Below are positions 2,088-63,314 of a stretch of DNA of 64,000 nucleotides, piece by piece. The DNA lies in assembly GCA_013361335.1 (NCBI GenBank), contig JABFYH010000003.1, forward strand, positions 4,217 through 68,216, given 5' to 3'. This DNA comes from Gemmatimonadaceae bacterium (GTDB lineage: Bacteria > Gemmatimonadota > Gemmatimonadetes > Gemmatimonadales > Gemmatimonadaceae). The number at the start of each line of letters is the position of its first letter. The stretch's first letter is position 1. The translations under genes and the position numbers were made by a program. A model generated the notes under the pieces. That model had not been told where the DNA came from, made no database searches, and saw only the letters and a list, made by a program, of their open reading frames with translations.

Positions 2088-2129
2088 GCGCGGCGAGTTC
2101 TCCCCCGGAGCTCGCCGCGCTCCCTTTTT
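2088..2129 (+). terminator. Rho-independent terminator after the Wzz/BY-kinase gene
   Basis: 13-bp stem (2088-2100 pairs with 2108-2120, one G-U) and a 7-nt loop, followed by TCCCTTTTT (T-run 2125-2129). It starts 26 nt after the stop at 2062. Confidence 0.65.
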
Positions 2130-2412
2130 GCATTAGGGCTGTGACGCGGCTGGCATGAGGCCGATGGGCTGGATGGCCCGCTGTTGCGGTCACGCTGAAT
2201 TCTGTGGACCCCGAGCAACAACCGAGGGGCGGGCCCACGCGACCGGGAGGGGAGGGGGGATTTTCAAGTATATGATTCGTAACGAGTTACTGGATAGCAA
2301 CCATAACGGGATGCTGAGCACGCAGAGTGCACAGGGAGTGATCCAAGTCACGGGTGTCCGGCCCACCACGGGCCAGCGCTCAACCCAACGGTTCGACGGA
2401 GAATCGGAGATT

Positions 2413-3240
2413 ATGCACGGAGCGGTATCAGCAGCGCTCGAGTCGACGACTGCCACGCGCACGGGGCGGAAGTCGCGTCCGGCCCGGATCAGCGGGGCAG
2501 AGAGCGCACAGGTTCTCGAGATCGCGCGAGACCTGCAGGTCGTCCCCTTCGCCGATCTGGCGGTCCCGGCGCCGGTGGTGGAGCAGGTGCTCCCGCGCGA
2601 GCGGTCCGAGGTCCTGAGCCGGGGACTGAACATCGTGATGGCCACCATCGGGCTCATCCTCGCGTCTCCGCTGATCCTGCTCATCGCCATCGCGATCAAG
2701 CTGACCTCCCGCGGCCCCGTCCTCTATTCGCAGTCTCGCGTCGGGGTCGATCGCCGCGGACGCTTCGGCAAGGCCGACGAGCGCCGGGTCTACGACCTCG
2801 GCGGCCGGCCGTTCACGATGTACAAGTTCCGCACGATGCACGTGAACGCCGAGGCCGACGGCCGCGCCGTGTGGGCCAAGAAGGTCGATCCGCGCGTCAC
2901 GCTCGTGGGCGGGGTGCTCCGCCGCACGCGCCTCGACGAGCTGCCGCAGCTCTACAATGTCCTGCGCGGCGACATGAACATCGTCGGCCCTCGGCCCGAG
3001 CGCCCCACGATCTTCGCCGACCTGCGCGACAACATCCCCGAGTACCCCATGCGTCAGCGCGTCAAGCCGGGCATCACGGGGTGGGCACAGATCAACCAGT
3101 GCTACGACGTCTCCATGGATTGCGTGCGCGAGAAGGTCCGCTACGATCTGGAGTACCTGCGGCGTCAGAGCATCGCGGAAGACCTGCGGATCATGACGAT
3201 GACGGTTCCGGTCATGCTTTTCCGGAAGGGCGGTTGGTGA
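2413..3240 (+). CDS. Priming sugar transferase (polyprenyl-phosphate hexose-1-phosphate transferase, bacterial sugar transferase family)
   Basis: One TM (LNIVMATIGLILASPLILLIAIAIKL), then the conserved core GPVLYSQSRVG, FTMYKFRTM, DELPQLYNVLRGDMNIVGPRPERP, KPGITGWAQI. The stop is firm. The start is uncertain: ATG 2413 is chosen, with alternatives ATG 2272 and GTG 2575. The ORF-track start 2155 lies 25 nt after a terminator, and GC3 is low up to about 2410. Confidence 0.85.
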   Translation: MHGAVSAALESTTATRTGRKSRPARISGAESAQVLEIARDLQVVPFADLAVPAPVVEQVLPRERSEVLSRGLNIVMATIGLILASPLILLIAIAIKLTSRGPVLYSQSRVGVDRRGRFGKADERRVYDLGGRPFTMYKFRTMHVNAEADGRAVWAKKVDPRVTLVGGVLRRTRLDELPQLYNVLRGDMNIVGPRPERPTIFADLRDNIPEYPMRQRVKPGITGWAQINQCYDVSMDCVREKVRYDLEYLRRQSIAEDLRIMTMTVPVMLFRKGGW

Positions 3241-3281
3241 ACCTCCCGTCCGTGTAGGTTGGTAGGCTGCCGGGACCACAG

Positions 3282-3304
3282 GGCGCCGTTGTCGGGCGCC
3301 TTTT
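3282..3304 (+). terminator. Weak candidate terminator after the sugar transferase
   Basis: GGCGCC (3282-3287) pairs with GGCGCC (3295-3300) across a 7-nt loop, then TTTTGTGTGTT. The stem is only 6 bp. Confidence 0.3.
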
Positions 3305-3427
3305 GTGTGTTGTGCAGCCGGCGCCCACGGTGAGTATTCGTCTGGTGCCTGTCCTATCCGCTGGTTTCCCGTGAGCGCCTCCCGCGTCCCTGTTCAGTCA
3401 GCTCGGTCTTCGCGTACCGAGGTCCCG

Positions 3428-4576
3428 GTGGCCGGCGTCCGGCCTCGGGTCACGGTCGCGTTCGTGATCGACAACATGCGCCTGGGTGGCACGGAGCTGA
3501 ATGCCGTGCGCACCGCCGAACGCCTGGACCCGAGCCGCTTCGACCTGCGGATGTTCTGCCTGAACGCGAACGGCCCACTGGCCGATCGGTACCGCGCGCT
3601 CGGGGTGCCGGTGACCGAGCTGCCCATCCGCAGCCTGTACGGCCCCTCTATGGTGTCGACGGGGCTCCGGTTCGTCCGCGAGCTGCGCCGGCAGGGCGTG
3701 CAGGTCGTCCACGCTCACGACATGTACAGCAACATCTTCGCGTCGCTCTGGGGACGCGTCGCGCGCGTGCCGGTCGTCATCACGAGCCGCCGCTGGTGGC
3801 ACACCTGCCCGAACCGGAAGCTGCGGGCGGGGAACCGCGTCGCCTTCCGGCTGTCGGACGCCGTGCTGGCCAACAGCGCGGCCGTCGCCCGCTCGGTCCA
3901 CGAGGAGGCGGGGATCGCGCCGGCCGACGTGTGGACGGTGTCGAACTTCGCCGACGACAGTGCCTTCGAGCCGCTGGCGCCCGCCGAGCGTGCTCTGCTC
4001 CGCCGCGGGTGGCGCGTACCGCAGGATGCGCTGGTCGTGGGCTGTGTCGCCCGGCTGGACCCGTTGAAGGACCACGCCACCCTGCTGCGCGCGATCGCGT
4101 CGCTCCGGACGACCGGGCGCCGCGTGCATCTCGTGCTGATCGGGGACGGTGAGCTTCGGCGTCCCCTCGAGCAGCTGGCGGCCGACCTCGACATCGGCGA
4201 CGCGGTGACCTTCGTCGGCGAGGTTCGCGACGGTCGGAATCATCACCGCGGCTTCGACGTCTCGGCGCTCTGCTCCCTCAGCGAGGGCTTTCCGAACACT
4301 CTCGTCGAAGCGATGGCGGGTGGACGTCCGGTCGTGGCCACGGCCGTCGGTGGAAGTGTGGACGCCGTCGTCGACGGCGAGACCGGCCTGCTCGTCCCGC
4401 CGAGCGCGGCCGACGACCTGGCGGCGGCGCTTGCGCGCCTGCTGGACGATCCCGAGGCGCGGTCGCGGATGGGCCGCGCCGGTTACGAGCGCGCGCGACG
4501 CTTGTACGGCGCGCAGCAGACCGTTGCCGGCCTCGAAGGGATGTACGACGCGCTCCTTGCCAGGAGCGCCCGGTGA
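3428..4576 (+). CDS. Glycosyltransferase family 4 (GT-B)
   Basis: N-terminal VAFVIDNMRLGGTE and C-terminal SEGFPNTLVEAMAGGRPVVATAVGGSVDAVVDGETGLLV. GTG 3428 is preceded by GAGG (3419-3422). The longer ORF-track start 3305 abuts the putative terminator. Confidence 0.8.
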   Translation: MAGVRPRVTVAFVIDNMRLGGTELNAVRTAERLDPSRFDLRMFCLNANGPLADRYRALGVPVTELPIRSLYGPSMVSTGLRFVRELRRQGVQVVHAHDMYSNIFASLWGRVARVPVVITSRRWWHTCPNRKLRAGNRVAFRLSDAVLANSAAVARSVHEEAGIAPADVWTVSNFADDSAFEPLAPAERALLRRGWRVPQDALVVGCVARLDPLKDHATLLRAIASLRTTGRRVHLVLIGDGELRRPLEQLAADLDIGDAVTFVGEVRDGRNHHRGFDVSALCSLSEGFPNTLVEAMAGGRPVVATAVGGSVDAVVDGETGLLVPPSAADDLAAALARLLDDPEARSRMGRAGYERARRLYGAQQTVAGLEGMYDALLARSAR

Positions 4577-57356: not shown

Positions 57357-58663
57357 TCACGACTCCGTGTACCGCTTCAAGACGGCGGCCTCGAGCCCCT
57401 CACGCACCTCCGCCAGCTCGATCGTCTCGAGGACGTCCGCGGCGAAGGCATAGGTGAGCAGCTCGCGCGCCGTGCGCGCGTTGATGCCGCGGCTCTTCAT
57501 GTAGAAGAGCGACGTCTCGTCCAGCCGACCGACCGTGGCGCCGTGCGTGCACTTGACGTCGTCGGCGAAGATCTCCAGCTGCGGCTTGGTGTCGATCTGG
57601 GCGCGCTCGGACAGCAGCAGGGTGTTGTTCGTCTGCTTGCCGTCCGTCTTCTGCGCCGCGGGATGCACGTAGACCTTGCCGTTGAACACCCCGTGCGACG
57701 CGCCGTCCAGAATCCCCTTGTACAGCTCGCGGCTGTAGCAGTTGGGTGCGATGTGCTCGATCCGCGTCTGGTGGTCGATATGCTGGCGGTCGTCACCCAG
57801 ATACAGGCCATTGAGAGTCGCGCCACATCCCTCGCCGCGCAGCTCCGTGTACACGTTCGTGCGCGAGAGCGCGGCGCCGATGGCGAAGCTGAACGACACG
57901 AGGTGGCTGTCGCGTCCCTGCTGCACGTCGAGCGTGCCGACGTGATACGCCTGCGCGGACTCCCGCTGGAGCTTGAGGTGGGTGAGCGTCGCACCCTCGC
58001 CGATCGTCGCCTCCGTCACCGTGTTGGTGAAGTACGCGCCCGCTCCGCGCGCCACCGTGGCGTAGCTCTCGATCACCGTCGCCTTCGCGAAGCGATCGAG
58101 CACGATCAGGTTGCGCGGCTGGGCGATCCCGTCCACCGCCTTCGCGTCGCTCACGAAGAGCAGATGGATCGGGCGCGCCACCTCGATGTCCTTCCCGACG
58201 TGCACCACGGCGCCGTCGTTGATGAACGCCGTGTTGAGCGCGGTGAAGGTGTGCGCGTCGATCGACGCGATGCGCCCCACGTGCTGCTCGAGCAGCAGGG
58301 GCAGCTCGTCGTAGGCGCGGGCCAGCGGCAGGACGGAGACGCCGTCCGGCAGCCCGGCCGCGCTCGAGAGCCCTGCGTCGTACCGGCCGTTCACGAATAC
58401 CAGCGTGTGCCACCCCTCGCCGCCGAAGGTGAACGGGGCGAGCTGCGCCGCGGATACCCCGCTCGTCGCCGAGGTGAGCGGCGCGAAGTCGCGCTCGGCG
58501 ATCGGCGCCACCGAGGTGAAGTGCCAGTCCTCGTTGCGGGTGCTCGGAAAGCCCAGCTCCTCGAACCGGGTGATGCCCGACAGGCGCAGCGAGCGCGCCC
58601 AGGAGGGCGCGGCGGCGCCGCCGTTCCGCGAGAACGCCTCGAACCCCTTGAGGTACGTCTCGA

Positions 58664-58667
<4 letters not shown>
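57357..58667 (-). CDS. sufD: Fe-S cluster assembly protein SufD
   Basis: GTG 58667 overlaps the sufC stop (GTGA). The 436-aa protein has a SufB/D-type beta-helix region and a C-terminal LFYMKSRGINARTARELLTYAF. Confidence 0.85.
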
Positions 58668-59416
<749 letters not shown>

Positions 59417-59430
59417 GAGTACCGATGTGT

Positions 59431-59510
59431 GTGAACCGTGATCCGTGAACCGTGAACCGTGAACCGTGAGTGCCGCCGTGACGGTTCACGGTTCACGGAT
59501 CACCGTTCAC
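59431..59510 (-). repeat. Inverted heptamer arrays forming a long hairpin in the sufB-sufC intergenic region
   Basis: The plus strand reads GTGAACC GTGATCC GTGAACC x3 ... then GGTTCAC-type units in inverse orientation. 59438-59460 pairs perfectly (23 bp) with 59481-59503. Pairing extends to 59431/59510 with one mismatch, and alternative 7-nt registers are possible. Confidence 0.95.
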
Positions 59511-59513
59511 CGG

Positions 59514-60950
59514 CTATCCAACCGAACCCTCCAGGGTGATACCAAGCAGCTGCTGCGCCTCGAGGGCGAACTCCATCGGCAGCTCCTTGAACACTTCCTT
59601 GCAGAAGCCGCTCACGATCATGCTCACCGCCTGCTCGGCGCTGAGCCCGCGCTGCTTCAGGTAGAAGATCTGGTCCTCGCCGATCTTGCTCGTCGAGGCC
59701 TCGTGCTCCACCTGCGCGCTGTTGTTTCCCACCTCGATGTACGGAAAGGTGTGCGCCCCGCACTCGTTGCCGACGAGCATGGAGTCGCACTGCGTGTAGT
59801 TGCGCGCCCCTTCCGCCTTCGGCATCACCTTGACCTGCCCGCGGTAGCTGTTCTGCCCGCGGCCGGCCGAGATGCCCTTGCTCACGATGTTGGACTTCGT
59901 GTTGCGGCCGATGTGGATCATCTTGGTGCCGGTGTCCGCCTGCTGGCGGTTGTTCACGACGGCCACGCTGTAGAACTCACCCGTCGAGTTGTCCCCCTGC
60001 AGGATGACGCTCGGATACTTCCAGGTGATCGCGCTGCCGGTCTCCACCTGCGTCCACGAGATCTTCGAGTTCGCCCCCGCGCACTTGCCGCGCTTGGTCA
60101 CGAAGTTGTAGATGCCCCCCTGACCCTCCTTGTCGCCGGCATACCAGTTCTGCACGGTCGAGTACTTGATCGTCGCGTCCTTGAGCGCGACCAGCTCGAC
60201 GACCGCGGCATGGAGCTGGTTCGTCGAGCGCTTGGGCGCCGTGCACCCCTCGAGGTAGCTCACGTAGGCCCCCTCGTCGGCGACGATCAGCGTGCGCTCG
60301 AACTGCCCCGTCCCCTCCGCGTTGATGCGGAAGTAGGTGCTCAGCTCCATCGGGCAGCGCACTCCCTTGGGGACGTACACGAACGACCCGTCGCTGAACA
60401 CCGCGGCGTTGAGCGCGGCGAAGAAGTTGTCCGAATGCGGCACCACCGAGCCGAGATACTTCTCCACCAGCTCCGGGTGCTCCTTCACCGCCTCGCCCAG
60501 CGAGCAGAAGATGATCCCCAGCTCGGCCAGCTCCGCCTTCATCGTCGTTCCGACGCTCACCGAGTCGAAGATGGCGTCCACCGCGACGCCCGAGAGGAAC
60601 TTCTGCTCGTTGAGCGGAATGCCCAGCTTCTCGTAGGTGCGCAGCAGCTCCGGATCCACCTCGTCCAGCGACTGGAGAGGAGTAACTGACTTTGGAGCAG
60701 AATAGTACGACTGCTCCTGATAGTCGATCGGCGGGTAGGTGACGTTCGCCCAGTGCGGCTCCTTCATCGTGAGCCAGCGGCGATACGCCTTGAGGCGCCA
60801 GTCGAGCAGCCACGCCGGCTCCTGCTTCTTTGCCGAGATGAGGCGGATGACCGCTTCGCTCAGGCCGGGCGGGATCGTATCGGTGTCGACGTCCGTGACG
60901 AAGCCGTACTGGTACTCCCGATTGACGAGCGTTTCGATGGACGAGCTCAT
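59514..60950 (-). CDS. sufB: Fe-S cluster assembly protein SufB
   Basis: 478 aa. [36 protein letters not shown], and a C-terminal [24 protein letters not shown]. Confidence 0.95.
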
Positions 60951-61024
60951 GACCGCAGACCCCTTGGACCGGAAATGCTGGCGTTCGCCACGTCGGCCTC
61001 GATGGGCGGCGGCGATACAAGACT

Positions 61025-61053
61025 AAAGTAGTCGGTAATGGTCGCGGAGTCAA
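61025..61053 (-). promoter_or_regulatory. Candidate sigma70-type promoter of the suf operon
   Basis: On the minus strand: TTGACT (61053-61048), a 17-nt spacer, then TACTTT (61030-61025). It lies about 70 nt upstream of the sufB ATG in the only AT-rich patch of the intergenic region. This is pattern matching only. Confidence 0.35.
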
Positions 61054-61194: not shown

Positions 61195-61554
61195 ATGATC
61201 CCACAGCCGACGTCGAGGGCGGTTGGGCAGGAATACGGGTGGGGAGACGGGTGTCAGGGGTGGCACCTGGTCCGCGCGCAGAACCTCAGCGTGATCGAGG
61301 AGCGCATGCCGCCGGGCACCTGCGAGACGCGGCACTGGCACGCCCGCGCTCGCCAGTTCTTCTACGTCCTCAGCGGCACGCTCACCCTCGAAGTCGAAGG
61401 GATGACCCATAGCCTGGCCCCACGCACCGGGATGGAGCTGCCACCGGGAATGGCTCATCAGGTCCTCAACGAGACGATCGCCGACGTGGAGTTTCTCGTC
61501 ATCTCGGAGCCGCCCACCCGCGGCGACCGCCACGAGACCGGGCTGACGCAGTAG
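61195..61554 (+). CDS. Cupin domain protein
   Basis: Cupin motif 1 ETRHWHARARQFFYVLSGT and motif 2 PPGMAHQV. ATG 61195 is chosen. Confidence 0.75.
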   Translation: MIPQPTSRAVGQEYGWGDGCQGWHLVRAQNLSVIEERMPPGTCETRHWHARARQFFYVLSGTLTLEVEGMTHSLAPRTGMELPPGMAHQVLNETIADVEFLVISEPPTRGDRHETGLTQ

Positions 61555-62390
61555 TGGGCGCACTCCCGAGCTACTGCGCGTCGCGCTACGTCCAGCCCCT
61601 GCGCGAAGGAGGATCGCTCCCCGCCGTCGTCGACACCGAGGGCGGCCTCTTCGTCGTCAAGTTTCGCGGCGCAGGGCAGGGAACCAAGGTGCTCGTCGCC
61701 GAGCTCATCGTCGGTGGCCTGGCGCTGCGGCTCGGCCTGCCGACGCCGGAGCTCGCCCTCGTGGAGATCTCATCCCGCTTCGGTCGCAGCGAGCCCGACC
61801 CCGAGATTCAGGACCTCCTGCGAAAGAGTCACGGCGTCAACGTCGGGAACCGCTACCTCGACGGTGCGTTCAACTTCGACCTCTCGGCCGCCGGCTCGCT
61901 CGTCCCGTCCGACCTCGCGGCACGGATCGTCTGGCTCGACGCCTTCACGACGAACCCCGATCGCACCGCGCGCAACCCGAACCTGCTCGTCTGGCAGCGA
62001 CAGCCCTGGCTCATCGACCATGGCGCCGCGCTCTACGCGCATCACGACTGGGCATCGGTGGACGGCGAGCGCACTCGCACCCCCTTTCCGCTCATCCGTT
62101 CGCACGTGCTGTTGCGGCAGAGCGGCGACCTGACCGTCGCCGACCGCGAGTGCGCCGCGCGGCTGACCGACGATGCGATCCGGGACGTCGTCTCGTCGGT
62201 GCCCGACAGCCTGCTCGTGGACCCGGCCGGCGGCGCGAACGACTTCGCCAGCGGCGACGAAGCCCGCGACCGCTACCTGCGCTATCTCACGGAACGCCTG
62301 GCCGAGCCGCGAGAGTTTCTGCGTGAAGCGATCGCCGCGCAGGAGCAGGTTCGTCTGGAGCCGCCCCTGCACCTGAAGGCGCGCCGGTGA
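61554..62390 (+). CDS. HipA-like / PI3-4-kinase-fold protein kinase
   Basis: Catalytic-loop-like TNPDRTARNPNLLV (D-R-x-x-x-N), metal-binding LIDHGAAL, and an N-terminal VVKFRGAGQG. The GTG start shares one base with the cupin stop (TAGTG). Confidence 0.55.
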   Translation: MGALPSYCASRYVQPLREGGSLPAVVDTEGGLFVVKFRGAGQGTKVLVAELIVGGLALRLGLPTPELALVEISSRFGRSEPDPEIQDLLRKSHGVNVGNRYLDGAFNFDLSAAGSLVPSDLAARIVWLDAFTTNPDRTARNPNLLVWQRQPWLIDHGAALYAHHDWASVDGERTRTPFPLIRSHVLLRQSGDLTVADRECAARLTDDAIRDVVSSVPDSLLVDPAGGANDFASGDEARDRYLRYLTERLAEPREFLREAIAAQEQVRLEPPLHLKARR

Positions 62391-62791
62391 GCGCGGCGCC
62401 GCTGGACTACGATTTCGCCGTGCTTCGCGTGGTGCCGCGGGTGCACCTGGGCGCGTTCGTGAACGTCGGCGTCGTGCTGCACGCGCGGGCCGCCGAGTTC
62501 CTGGCGCTGCGCGTGCTCACGGACGTCGCCGCCCTTCAGGCCCGTCTTCCGGGGATGGATGCCGAGCTCCTCGCGCGCTACCTGCGCGCCAGCGAAGCGA
62601 TCTGCGCCGGCGATCCGACCGCCGGCCCGGTCGCCCTTGCCCCGCCGTCCGAGCGGTTCCACTGGCTCACCGCGCCGCGCTCCGACGTCCTTCAGAGCTC
62701 GCCGGTGCACGAGGGCGTGTGCGGCGACCTGCCACGCGAGCTCGAACGGCTATATGGGGCGTACGTGCTCGAGCCGGCAACTCATGGCTGA
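62387..62791 (+). CDS. DUF3037-like protein
   Basis: YDFAVLRVVPRVHLGAFVNVGVVLH matches my memory of DUF3037 N-termini. The GTG start overlaps the kinase stop (GTGA). Confidence 0.5.
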   Translation: MSAAPLDYDFAVLRVVPRVHLGAFVNVGVVLHARAAEFLALRVLTDVAALQARLPGMDAELLARYLRASEAICAGDPTAGPVALAPPSERFHWLTAPRSDVLQSSPVHEGVCGDLPRELERLYGAYVLEPATHG

Positions 62792-62844: not shown

Positions 62845-63033
62845 ATGAACGACGCCCAGCTCAAGGCTCTGCTGCGGAAGACCCAGGCCGCCGCCGCGGC
62901 CGCGAAGCCGAAGAAGAATCGCACCTACGACGCGACCCTCGACGCGACCCGCCCGCCGACGACCGAAGAGGGCGAGGCGGCCGACGCCGATGCGGCGGAC
63001 CTGTTCGCGCAGATGAAGAAGCGCGAGTTCTGA
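62845..63033 (+). CDS. Possible small charged protein (62 aa)
   Basis: ATG 62845 follows GGGAGCGG. The sequence is Lys/Ala-rich and then acidic (MNDAQLKALLRKTQAAAAAAKPKKNR...EEGEAADADAADLF). I recognise no family. Confidence 0.3.
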   Translation: MNDAQLKALLRKTQAAAAAAKPKKNRTYDATLDATRPPTTEEGEAADADAADLFAQMKKREF

Positions 63034-63041
63034 GCACGGCG

Positions 63042-63314
63042 ATGTCTCGCGCGTTCGTCAACGAGGATGCCGGCGGCACCGCGCCACGCCGCGGCTATGG
63101 CCTTCCGCCGCGTGAGGATCCCGGCTTCGACGCGGCGGCGGCCGAGGCGCTGCTCGAGGCGGCGCGGGCTGGTGAGACGGAGAGCGCCGAGCTCGCGACG
63201 GGCTACTATTGGGGCGAGCCGCGCCTTCGCGAGCATGTGCAGCGCATCCTCGCCCGCGCGCGATCGACCGGTGACGACCGCCTGGAGCAGCTGGCCGAGC
63301 GCTATCTGCGGTGA
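63042..63314 (+). CDS. Hypothetical protein (90 aa)
   Basis: MSRAFVNEDAGG... with high GC3. Its stop overlaps the GTG of the downstream mutarotase gene (GTGA). Confidence 0.5.
   Translation: MSRAFVNEDAGGTAPRRGYGLPPREDPGFDAAAAEALLEAARAGETESAELATGYYWGEPRLREHVQRILARARSTGDDRLEQLAERYLR

What the first reader, a model, noticed from the sequence alone, without database searches (positions are those of the whole stretch)
61195..62791. Translationally coupled cupin / HipA-like kinase / DUF3037-like trio
Seen: three ORFs are linked by stop-start overlaps (TAGTG at 61552-61556, GTGA at 62387-62390).
- The middle protein has a PI3/4-kinase or HipA-like catalytic loop (NPDRTARNPN) and LIDHG.
- It has no HipB-like HTH partner.
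- The third protein has the hydrophobic YDFAVLRVVPRV...GVVLH start that I associate with DUF3037.

Established: HipA-family kinases act as toxins or regulators and are neutralised by adjacent small proteins.

Inference: this could be an uncharacterised kinase-based toxin-antitoxin, stress or defence module. DUF3037 would be the partner and the cupin a sensor or small-molecule-binding component. To my knowledge neither the pairing nor a function has been worked out.
Basis: partly seen in the sequence, partly recalled or inferred. Interest (0 to 1): 0.65.

Follow-up and report, generated by a model that had tools for sequence, protein, structure and literature searches.

The report
Short-form HipA-like kinase / DUF3037 gene pair
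This is a real two-gene module, a small HipA-like protein kinase translationally coupled to a DUF3037 protein. Its longer relatives were recently shown to be kinase-toxin/antitoxin anti-phage systems, so the pairing is not new, and the upstream cupin is only a local neighbour.

Summary
Three overlapping ORFs sit at 61195-62791: Cupin_2, a PF20613 HipA_2 kinase with intact catalytic residues, and a PF11236 DUF3037 protein.

- **Pair, not trio.** In 83 related loci from at least eight phyla, kinase and DUF3037 are adjacent on the same strand in 83 of 83. The cupin occurs in only 6 of 83, all close Gemmatimonadaceae/Gemmatimonadales relatives that also sit beside the suf operon.
- **Not unknown.** The pairing is PADLOC candidate PDC-M66. 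E. coli DS-6 ("HipAD") and the pair beside Retron-Sda1 were shown in 2025-26 to defend against phage. The kinase is required, and deleting DUF3037 is toxic.

What is distinct here is a "short form".
- The DUF3037 protein is 134 aa and lacks the roughly 150-aa C-terminal domain of the validated systems.
- The kinase matches only half of the Pfam model.
- Neighbours are housekeeping genes, base composition is native, and the family was found in 0 viral contigs and 9 of 72,556 plasmids.

The DUF3037 model is confident but has no solved structural relative. The kinase model is closest to H. pylori CtkA, then PI4KII-alpha and HipA.

Most likely it is a kinase-toxin/DUF3037-antitoxin module. A defence role for the short form is untested.

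The parts
61554..62390 (+). HipA_2-type (PF20613) Ser/Thr-kinase-like protein, 278 aa; putative toxin or effector
   Evidence: Pfam HipA_2 E = 7e-15 over aa 28-163, profile positions 21-155 of 240. PADLOC PDC-M66A E = 4e-21. K36, D136, N143, D155, G157 and H184 are invariant, and N141 and H156 nearly so, in 33 diverse homologues. AF2 model pLDDT 89.2, pTM 0.90. Foldseek top hit is H. pylori CtkA (E = 1e-5, TM 0.55), followed by Fam20A, PI4KII-alpha and Shewanella HipA.
62387..62791 (+). Short-form DUF3037 protein, 134 aa, domain only; putative kinase-binding neutraliser (antitoxin)
   Evidence: Pfam DUF3037 E = 4e-33 covering profile 1-118 of 118. PADLOC PDC-M66B E = 7e-12, but only profile positions 3-129 of 281. 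Directly downstream of the kinase in 83 of 83 loci. AF2 pLDDT 88.6, pTM 0.83. No PDB fold match, best E = 0.67. Four uncharacterised phage proteins share the fold.
61195..61554 (+). Cupin_2 protein, 119 aa; lineage-specific upstream neighbour, probably co-transcribed here, not part of the conserved module
   Evidence: Cupin_2 E = 6e-15. A homologue is adjacent in only 6 of 83 loci, L001-L006. Separated from the kinase by 69 nt in L002.
61552..61556 (+). TAGTG stop/start overlap between cupin and kinase
   Evidence: Read from the sequence.
62387..62390 (+). GTGA start/stop overlap between kinase and DUF3037 (translational coupling)
   Evidence: Read from the sequence. A 4-nt overlap is seen in 8 related loci where the start is unambiguous, and a 23-nt overlap is common in Bacteroidota, Acidobacteriota and Cyanobacteria.
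61659..61661 (+). Codon of K36, the invariant presumed ATP-binding lysine (VVKFRG)
   Evidence: Invariant column in alignments A1, A2 and A6.
61953..61982 (+). Catalytic loop NPDRTARNPN (N134, D136, N141, N143)
   Evidence: N134, D136, R137 and N143 are invariant and N141 nearly invariant.
62010..62024 (+). LIDHG, a metal-binding DFG-like motif (D155, H156, G157)
   Evidence: D155 and G157 are invariant; I154 and H156 are nearly invariant.

Best explanation
The locus holds a self-contained two-gene module. A 278-aa atypical protein kinase of Pfam family HipA_2 is followed by, and translationally coupled to, a 134-aa protein made of the DUF3037 domain alone. It is a minimal, chromosomal 'short-form' relative of the HipA-like/DUF3037 systems known as PADLOC PDC-M66, E. 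coli DS-6 (HipAD) and the pair beside Retron-Sda1.

Proposed mechanism:
1. The kinase is catalytically competent (shown only by residue conservation).
2. It phosphorylates an essential cellular target and so arrests growth (inferred from homologues).
3. The DUF3037 protein, made in fixed proportion through the overlapping GTGA junction, binds and silences the kinase (inferred).
4. Loss or displacement of DUF3037 under phage infection or stress frees the kinase (inferred).

This variant lacks the C-terminal domain of the validated partners, so the DUF3037 domain itself would be the kinase-neutralising element. Any DNA binding or autoregulation attributed to the long partners is unlikely here. 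The upstream cupin is a neighbour specific to Gemmatimonadaceae/Gemmatimonadales that is probably co-transcribed. It is not part of the module.

The confidence given refers to the two-gene kinase/neutraliser reading. That this short form acts specifically in phage defence I put at only about 0.4.
For: - **Family hits.** HipA_2 and DUF3037 both pass the Pfam cut-offs. PDC-M66A E = 4e-21 and PDC-M66B E = 7e-12.
- **Homology to a long-form phage pair.** hhalign against the pair on Klebsiella phage Kp4864-1 gives E = 1e-12 for the kinase over 199 columns, and E = 1e-12 for DUF3037 over 118 columns. That pair matches PDC-M66B over its full length.
- **Adjacency.** Kinase and DUF3037 lie on the same strand in 83 of 83 loci (kinase identity 44-83%). 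The maximal DUF3037 ORF overlaps the kinase end in 80 of 83. No other neighbour is conserved.
- **Co-divergence.** Pairwise identities of the two proteins correlate at r = 0.85.
- **Catalytic residues.** K36, D136, N143 and D155 are invariant.
- **Kinase fold.** Confident model with CtkA, PI4KII-alpha and HipA as structural neighbours.
- **Experiments on homologues.** Deleting DUF3037 is toxic and deleting the kinase abolishes defence against phage Bas51 (PMC12548924). A DS-6A catalytic mutant loses defence, and AF3 predicts a DS-6A/DS-6B complex (PMC13092281).
- **Cassette behaviour.** Flanking genes differ even between species of one genus in Pedobacter, Hymenobacter, Ferruginibacter and Pseudoxanthomonas.
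Against: - No experiment exists for any short-form pair.
- The validated systems are only 19-26% identical to this one and carry an extra C-terminal domain on the partner.
- The context is not defence-like. Neighbours are suf, polyphosphate kinase and aldose epimerase here, and Rrf2, PfkB, MsrB and a siderophore-interacting protein elsewhere.
- Synteny is stable across the close Gemmatimonadaceae clade and GC3 is native.
- The family gave 0 confirmed hits in 2.9 million viral contigs. It matched 9 of 72,556 plasmid records, mostly megaplasmids, and its single match among 50,697 phage records is a long form.
- No physical interaction, toxicity or kinase target was tested here.
- No RNA data were available to confirm co-transcription.
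Confidence: 0.6

Rival explanations
1. Domesticated regulatory pair. The short-form kinase and DUF3037 form a vertically inherited signalling or metabolic-control unit. DUF3037 would be a regulatory subunit, activator or substrate. The pair would not be a poison/antidote system or a phage-defence system.
For: - Housekeeping neighbourhoods.
- Conserved synteny, with 72-83% kinase identity and 73-90% DUF3037 identity across Gemmatimonadaceae/Gemmatimonadales.
- Native composition.
- Absent from viral contigs and nearly absent from plasmids, whereas the long form is in at least 44 viral contigs.
- The partner lacks the extra domain of the defence-type proteins.
- DUF3037 has a strongly conserved polar motif, RFHWLTAPRS-x3-Q-x-S-x-VH-x-G, which would suit an active or phospho-acceptor site.
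Against: - Homologous pairs behave as toxin and antitoxin (PMC12548924).
- Outside one clade the cassette sits at different genomic positions even within a genus. This is more typical of autonomous modules than of core genes.
- Both genes evolve faster than the adjacent SufB and SufC, at 72-83% against 88-96% identity.
Confidence: 0.25
2. One reading: a three-component system in which the cupin senses a small molecule and controls the kinase/DUF3037 pair.
For: - A 1-nt stop/start overlap joins cupin and kinase in the window, and the two genes also abut or overlap in L001 and L003.
- The cupin is kept next to the pair in all six close relatives, at 62-83% identity.
- The cupin has an intact PxGxxHxxxN metal-site motif (read from the sequence).
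Against: - The cupin is absent next to the pair in 77 of 83 loci. These include other Gemmatimonadales and Longimicrobiales at 57-67% kinase identity.
- In L002 a 69-nt gap separates cupin and kinase.
- The cupin matches no PADLOC model.
- At most this is a lineage-specific add-on.
Confidence: 0.08
3. Canonical HipBA-type or HipBST-type persistence module. The kinase would be a true HipA/HipT that phosphorylates an aminoacyl-tRNA synthetase, and DUF3037 would play the HipS or HipB role.
For: - Pfam places the kinase in a 'HipA-like' family and NCBI names relatives 'HipA family kinase'.
- Foldseek gives probability 0.98 to Shewanella HipA.
- One short local match covers the alpha-C/LGLxVP region of E. 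coli HipA.
Against: - No HipA_C, HipA_N or Couple_hipA hit at E <= 1.
- hhalign against E. coli HipA gives probability 3%.
- The protein is 278 aa against 440 aa for HipA and has no N-terminal subdomains.
- TM-score to HipA is only 0.40-0.43, and CtkA is closer.
- There is no HTH partner.
- The DUF3037 model matches no PDB chain at E <= 0.001, so it is not HipS-like or HipB-like.
Confidence: 0.05

Closest known systems
PADLOC PDC-M66; E. coli DS-6 ('HipAD', DefensePredictor, PMC13092281; Brenes & Laub 2025, cited there); HipA-like/DUF3037 pair beside Retron-Sda1 (PMC12548924)
   Same: - The same two Pfam families in the same order: kinase first, then DUF3037 overlapping its end.
- No HipB partner.
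- The kinase catalytic residues are conserved.
- Homology to the long-form phage pair, which matches PDC-M66B over its full length, is detectable over the whole kinase and the whole DUF3037 domain.
   Different: - The partner here is 134 aa and DUF3037-only. The validated partners are about 280 aa with a C-terminal domain (DUF1829 in DS-6B; similar to retron type III DNA-binding proteins in Sda1).
- The window kinase covers only positions 21-155 of the Pfam profile at 55 bits, against a full-length 261 bits for a phage-borne long form.
- Long forms sit on prophages, with at least 44 IMG/VR contigs for one subgroup.
- The short form is chromosomal, lies among housekeeping genes, and was absent from viral contigs.
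HipBA type II toxin-antitoxin (E. coli HipA/HipB)
   Same: - A protein-kinase-like fold with a HipA-type catalytic loop (D-x-x-x-x-N) and a downstream metal-binding Asp.
- A two-gene operon with overlapping genes.
- A presumed kinase toxin neutralised by a small partner.
   Different: - No significant sequence similarity.
- No HipA N-terminal domains.
- The partner lies downstream, is not an HTH protein, and has an unrelated fold.
- There is no evidence for a synthetase target.
Helicobacter pylori CtkA (JHP0940), PDB 3akj/3akk/3akl
   Same: Closest solved structure to the kinase model (Foldseek E = 1e-5, TM 0.53-0.57) and of similar size, about 280-300 aa.
   Different: - 12-13% sequence identity.
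- From my own knowledge, CtkA is a secreted kinase that acts on host cells and has no DUF3037 partner.
HipBST tripartite system (HipS antitoxin = HipA N-terminal subdomain)
   Same: A truncated HipA-like kinase neutralised by a small non-DNA-binding protein would be the functional analogy.
   Different: - The DUF3037 model has no structural match in the PDB. From my own knowledge, the PDB holds HipBST structures.
- The gene order is reversed.
- There is no HipB.

Membership tests
HipA_2 kinase / DUF3037 two-gene systems (PDC-M66, DS-6/HipAD) | Gene A belongs to Pfam HipA_2 (PF20613) and PADLOC PDC-M66A | tested here: met
   55.3 bits against a cut-off of 27, E = 7e-15. PDC-M66A E = 4e-21. Only the N-terminal and catalytic half aligns to either model.
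HipA_2 kinase / DUF3037 two-gene systems (PDC-M66, DS-6/HipAD) | Gene B, directly downstream on the same strand, carries a DUF3037 domain (PF11236) | tested here: met
   114.5 bits, E = 4e-33, with a 4-nt overlap. The arrangement is conserved in 83 of 83 loci.
HipA_2 kinase / DUF3037 two-gene systems (PDC-M66, DS-6/HipAD) | Gene B has the C-terminal domain of the validated partners (about 280 aa; DUF1829 or DNA-binding-like) | tested here: not met
   The protein is 134 aa and matches PDC-M66B only at profile positions 3-129 of 281. All 83 relatives are also short. The phage long form matches positions 6-271.
HipA_2 kinase / DUF3037 two-gene systems (PDC-M66, DS-6/HipAD) | Kinase catalytic residues are intact | tested here: met
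   K36, D136, N143 and D155 are present and invariant among homologues.
HipA_2 kinase / DUF3037 two-gene systems (PDC-M66, DS-6/HipAD) | Kinase is toxic without gene B, and the pair protects against phage | not testable with these tools
   Shown only for long-form homologues (PMC12548924, PMC13092281).
HipA_2 kinase / DUF3037 two-gene systems (PDC-M66, DS-6/HipAD) | Located on a prophage, mobile element or defence island | tested here: not met
   The flanks are suf, aldose epimerase and similar genes. 0 confirmed viral contigs. 9 of 72,556 plasmid records.
Canonical HipA (HipBA type II TA) | HipA_C catalytic domain plus HipA_N/Couple_hipA N-terminal domains | tested here: not met
   No such Pfam hit at E <= 1. 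hhalign against E. coli HipA gives probability 3%. The protein is only 278 aa.
Canonical HipA (HipBA type II TA) | Upstream HipB HTH antitoxin/repressor | tested here: not met
   The upstream gene is a Cupin_2 protein without an HTH. The downstream small ORFs have no family hit.
Canonical HipA (HipBA type II TA) | Protein-kinase-like fold resembling HipA | tested here: met
   Foldseek against Shewanella HipA 4pu4/4pu5 gives probability 0.98 and TM 0.40-0.43. CtkA is closer at TM 0.55. This is similarity at fold level only.
HipBST (HipS-type antitoxin) | The small partner has the fold of the HipA N-terminal subdomain (HipS) | tested here: not met
   The DUF3037 model (pLDDT 88.6) has no PDB match at E <= 0.001. 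Best hit E = 0.67, TM 0.24.
Cupin_2 small proteins | Cupin_2 domain with metal-site motifs | tested here: met
   PF07883 E = 6e-15 over aa 36-103. HWH and PPGMAHQVLN motifs were read from the translation.

The most novel reading that the evidence does not exclude
The short-form pairs may be an old, mostly chromosomally inherited branch of the family. In this reading the DUF3037 domain alone, a fold with no solved relative, is the kinase-controlling element. The module would have been recruited for endogenous growth or stress control rather than phage defence. In Gemmatimonadaceae it would additionally be wired to a metal-binding cupin and placed divergently from the suf Fe-S assembly operon with its IscR-like operator. 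The phage-borne long forms would then be derived weaponised versions that gained a sensor or DNA-binding domain.
Probability: 0.12. Interest if true: 0.6.

Novelty: new variant of a known kind. Interest (0 to 1): 0.33.

Why it matters
The HipA-like/DUF3037 pairing has only just entered the list of validated anti-phage toxin-antitoxin systems, and its mechanism is still open. The kinase target, the trigger, and which part of the partner silences the kinase are all unknown.

The short form is widespread. It keeps only the DUF3037 domain, yet it is always paired with and coupled to the kinase. That points to the DUF3037 domain as the minimal kinase partner and offers a simpler system for structural and biochemical work.

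Its chromosomal, non-mobile lifestyle also raises a question. Not every PADLOC 'PDC-M66' call may be a defence system. For this particular window the finding is otherwise an ordinary member of an already annotated family.

Tried and rejected
- **Locus scan with 33 sequences.** The search for related loci on the 33-sequence kinase alignment failed because no stretch was conserved enough. I repeated it with 11 closer sequences.
- **Structure prediction from locus translations.** I rebuilt the alignments from two further database searches.
- **DUF3037 as a HipS-, HipB- or HTH-like fold.** Rejected. There was no PDB fold match, and the sequence search of the PDB found only chance-level hits.
- **Sequence-level kinship to E. 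coli HipA.** Rejected. phmmer of the kinase against PDB sequences found nothing.
- **A third conserved gene.** The only recurrent flanking clusters were antisense shadow ORFs, generic ABC ATPases, histidine kinases and short-chain dehydrogenases at varying positions.
- **A general Fe-S/Rrf2 link.** This was suggested by the suf operon here and an Rrf2 regulator in Pseudoxanthomonas. I rejected it because no Rrf2 homologue occurs in the other 83 loci.
- **Transcript evidence.** Only soil DNA metagenomes hold the sequence, and no RNA run was found.
- **Promoter and terminator consensus scan.** Nothing found. That is uninformative for this phylum.
- **Brenes & Laub 2025 (HipAD).** The paper is not held in the library. 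The Payne 2024 preprint does not mention M66 or HipA.
Full report
**1. Observation**

The three ORFs exist as described.
- A cupin at 61195-61554 (119 aa).
- A kinase-like protein at 61554-62390 (278 aa, GTG start).
- A DUF3037-like protein at 62387-62791 (134 aa, GTG start).

Reading the sequence confirms both junctions. TAG and GTG share a G at 61554, giving TAGTG at 61552-61556. GTG and TGA overlap as GTGA at 62387-62390.

Pfam supports all three assignments above the curated cut-offs:
- Cupin_2, E = 6e-15.
- HipA_2 (PF20613), 55.3 bits against a cut-off of 27.
- DUF3037 (PF11236), 114.5 bits against a cut-off of 22.6.

NCBIfam has no model for the kinase or DUF3037. Homologue alignments agree with all three start codons. 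The intergenic alignment rules out the longer 61087 start for the cupin. No HTH protein lies in or next to the operon.

**2. Source organism and family size**

The closest kinase homologues are 74-91% identical, 278-290 aa long, and named as Gemmatimonadaceae, Gemmatimonadales or Gemmatimonadetes where a name exists. NCBI already calls them 'HipA family kinase'. Older records carry the misnomer 'aminotransferase class I and II'.

The DNA itself is found in soil metagenomes. An exhaustive search of 1.84 billion cluster representatives found 2,590 clusters at E <= 1e-3 and 223 at E <= 1e-30. This is a sizeable family.

**3. What belongs together**

I collected 83 loci for the first analysis.
- Three came from exact-protein look-ups.
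- Eighty came from a scan of one genome per species. Their kinase identity to the window ranges from 44% to 83%.
- The taxa include Gemmatimonadota, Bacteroidota, Chlorobiota, Acidobacteriota (Pyrinomonadaceae), Xanthomonadales, Burkholderiales, Cyanobacteria, Chloroflexota and Rubrobacteria.

Iterated profile searches over all six-frame ORFs of these loci gave a clear result.
- A DUF3037 ORF lies directly downstream of the kinase on the same strand in 83 of 83 loci.
- The maximal DUF3037 ORF overlaps the kinase end in 80 of 83. Where the start is unambiguous the overlap is 4 nt (as here) or 23 nt.
- Every one of these DUF3037 proteins is short. The stop codon lies about 385-400 nt after the kinase stop in nearly all loci.
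- A cupin homologue is adjacent in only 6 of 83 loci (L001-L006). All six are close Gemmatimonadaceae/Gemmatimonadales relatives that also keep the suf operon on the other side.
- More distant Gemmatimonadales and Longimicrobiales (57-67% kinase identity) have the pair but neither the cupin nor suf.

All-against-all clustering of flanking ORFs found no other conserved neighbour. The only recurrent clusters were antisense shadows and generic families at variable positions. Pairwise identities of kinase and DUF3037 across loci correlate at r = 0.85. So the unit is a pair, not a trio.

**4. The kinase**

In 33 diverse homologues K36, N134, D136, R137, N143, D155, G157 and H184 are invariant, and N141 and H156 are nearly so. 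This is the pattern of an active kinase: an ATP-binding Lys, a catalytic Asp with Asn, and a metal-binding Asp.

The AF2 model is confident (pLDDT 89.2, pTM 0.90). Its Foldseek neighbours in the PDB, in order, are:
- H. pylori CtkA (E = 1e-5, TM 0.53-0.57).
- Fam20A.
- PI4KII-alpha.
- Shewanella HipA (probability 0.98, TM 0.40-0.43).

At sequence level it is not a canonical HipA. There is no HipA_C or HipA_N hit, no PDB sequence hit, and hhalign against E. coli HipA gives probability 3%. 'HipA-like' therefore holds at the fold or clan level only.

**5. The DUF3037 protein**

The short proteins are well conserved, with mean column identity of 46% across phyla. The motifs are YDYAVIRVVPRVEREEF-x-NVGVIL at the N-terminus and RFHWLTAPRST-x-IQTSPVH-x-G near the C-terminus. 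G28, F91, S99, Q103 and G110 are invariant.

The AF2 model is confident (pLDDT 88.6, pTM 0.83). It has no solved structural relative; the best PDB hit has E = 0.67 and TM 0.24. It is therefore neither HipB-like nor HipS-like. In the viral predicted-structure library only four uncharacterised phage proteins (125-287 aa) share the fold.

**6. What is already known**

PADLOC models PDC-M66A and PDC-M66B hit the two proteins (E = 4e-21 and 7e-12). The literature in the library adds two experimental studies.

González-Delgado et al., PLoS Biol 2025 (PMC12548924):
- DUF3037 is strongly associated with HipA-like genes, and PADLOC labels the pair PDC-M66.
- In the Retron-Sda1 operon, deleting the kinase abolished defence against phage Bas51.
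- Deleting DUF3037 was toxic.
- Neither the retron RT nor the ncRNA was needed.

DefensePredictor, Science 2026 (PMC13092281):
- It validated DS-6. DS-6A is a HipA-like kinase and DS-6B carries DUF3037 plus DUF1829.
- Defence was lost in a catalytic mutant.
- AF3 predicted a DS-6A/DS-6B complex.
- The system was renamed HipAD with reference to Brenes & Laub 2025, which I could not read.

Its toxin-antitoxin/defence guess was a good one.

**7. How this locus differs from the validated systems**

The only phage record matching the window kinase is Klebsiella phage Kp4864-1. It carries a 250-aa kinase overlapped by a 280-aa DUF3037 protein, immediately after a CI/LexA-like repressor gene.
- That kinase matches Pfam HipA_2 over the full profile at 261 bits.
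- Its partner matches PDC-M66B over positions 6-271 of 281.
- The window kinase matches only profile positions 21-155 at 55 bits. The window partner matches only positions 3-129.

Profile comparison still shows clear homology across the whole kinase and the whole DUF3037 domain (E = 1e-12 each, 19-26% identity).

The two forms also differ in lifestyle.
- Close relatives of the phage-borne long form occur in at least 44 IMG/VR viral contigs.
- The degenerate patterns that found at least 600 short-form genes in bacterial genomes found no confirmed relative in the same viral collection.
- Only 9 of 72,556 plasmid records match, mostly megaplasmids or chromids.
- Around short-form pairs the annotated neighbours are housekeeping or metabolic: suf, polyphosphate kinase, aldose epimerase, Rrf2, PfkB, MsrB and a siderophore-interacting reductase.
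- GC and GC3 of the three genes are native to the window.

Against a simple 'core gene' reading, two points stand out. The flanks of the pair differ even between species of one genus in Pedobacter, Hymenobacter, Ferruginibacter and Pseudoxanthomonas. The pair also evolves faster than SufB and SufC next door. It behaves as an autonomous two-gene cassette that is stable within some clades.

**8. Mechanism**

Shown here:
- The gene pair, its coupling, and its universal co-occurrence and co-divergence.
- An intact kinase active site and a kinase fold.
- A partner with an unsolved fold that lacks any extra domain.
- Homology to experimentally validated toxin/antitoxin-type defence pairs.

Inferred:
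- The kinase phosphorylates an essential target and stops growth.
- DUF3037 binds and silences the kinase.
- Release occurs on infection or stress.

The short form keeps only the DUF3037 domain and is always paired with the kinase. The simplest inference is that this domain is the kinase-binding, neutralising part. The C-terminal domain of the long forms would then add something else, such as DNA binding, autoregulation or sensing.

I put about 0.6 on the kinase-toxin/DUF3037-neutraliser reading for this locus, and about 0.4 on a phage-defence role specifically. The main rival, at about 0.25, is a domesticated regulatory pair. The cupin-as-sensor model gets about 0.08, and a canonical HipBA/HipBST-type reading about 0.05.

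**9. Verdict**

The feature is real, and its main claim (kinase plus DUF3037 module) is right. The cupin is a lineage-specific neighbour. The kind of system is already known and annotated.

This instance belongs to an uncharacterised short-form, chromosomal variant, and one defining feature of the validated family (the long partner) is not met. I therefore file it as a new variant of a known kind, of modest interest.

Noticed in passing
window 61015-61039 (core palindrome 61021-61033): ATACAAGACTAAAGTAGTCGGTAAT lies in the divergent sufB/cupin intergenic region and contains a GACT-N5-AGTC inverted repeat. The block is conserved in all six syntenic relatives. From memory it resembles an IscR/Rrf2 type-1 operator, so it is probably the suf operator.
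   Followed up: partly
window 62845-63033 (+) and 63042-63314 (+): Two small ORFs (62 and 90 aa) downstream of DUF3037 have no Pfam or NCBIfam hit. The 62-aa ORF is 85-96% identical in L001-L006. The 90-aa ORF was found in only two of them (L002, L003), at 93%. Both are better conserved than the kinase, so they look like real small proteins of unknown function.
   Followed up: partly
L088 (Klebsiella phage Kp4864-1, OK490416.1) 2121-4514: An unannotated phage record carries a long-form HipA_2 kinase (2938-3690) and a 280-aa DUF3037 protein (3672-4514) directly after a CI/LexA-like S24 repressor gene (2121-2843). Close relatives are in at least 44 IMG/VR contigs.
   Followed up: partly
window 57357-60950 (- strand): A suf Fe-S cluster assembly operon runs divergently from the cupin: sufB at 59514-60950, sufC at 58664-59416, and a sufD-like ORF upstream of these. 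In relatives it continues with NifU-like, Rieske and cysteine desulfurase genes.
   Followed up: no
L084 6351-6815 (-) / L085: In Pseudoxanthomonas winnipegensis the short-form pair is divergent from an Rrf2-family regulator and is followed by ACBP and flavodoxin-like genes. No Rrf2 homologue was found in the other 83 loci, so this is not a general link.
   Followed up: yes
L023 4746-6320 and L032 5804-6413: Two exceptions to the tight junction. In a Rubricoccaceae MAG the kinase reading frame runs on past the usual stop, across the DUF3037 gene. In a Dehalococcoidia MAG DUF3037 lies 608 nt downstream of the kinase. These could be assembly errors, frameshifts or insertions.
   Followed up: no
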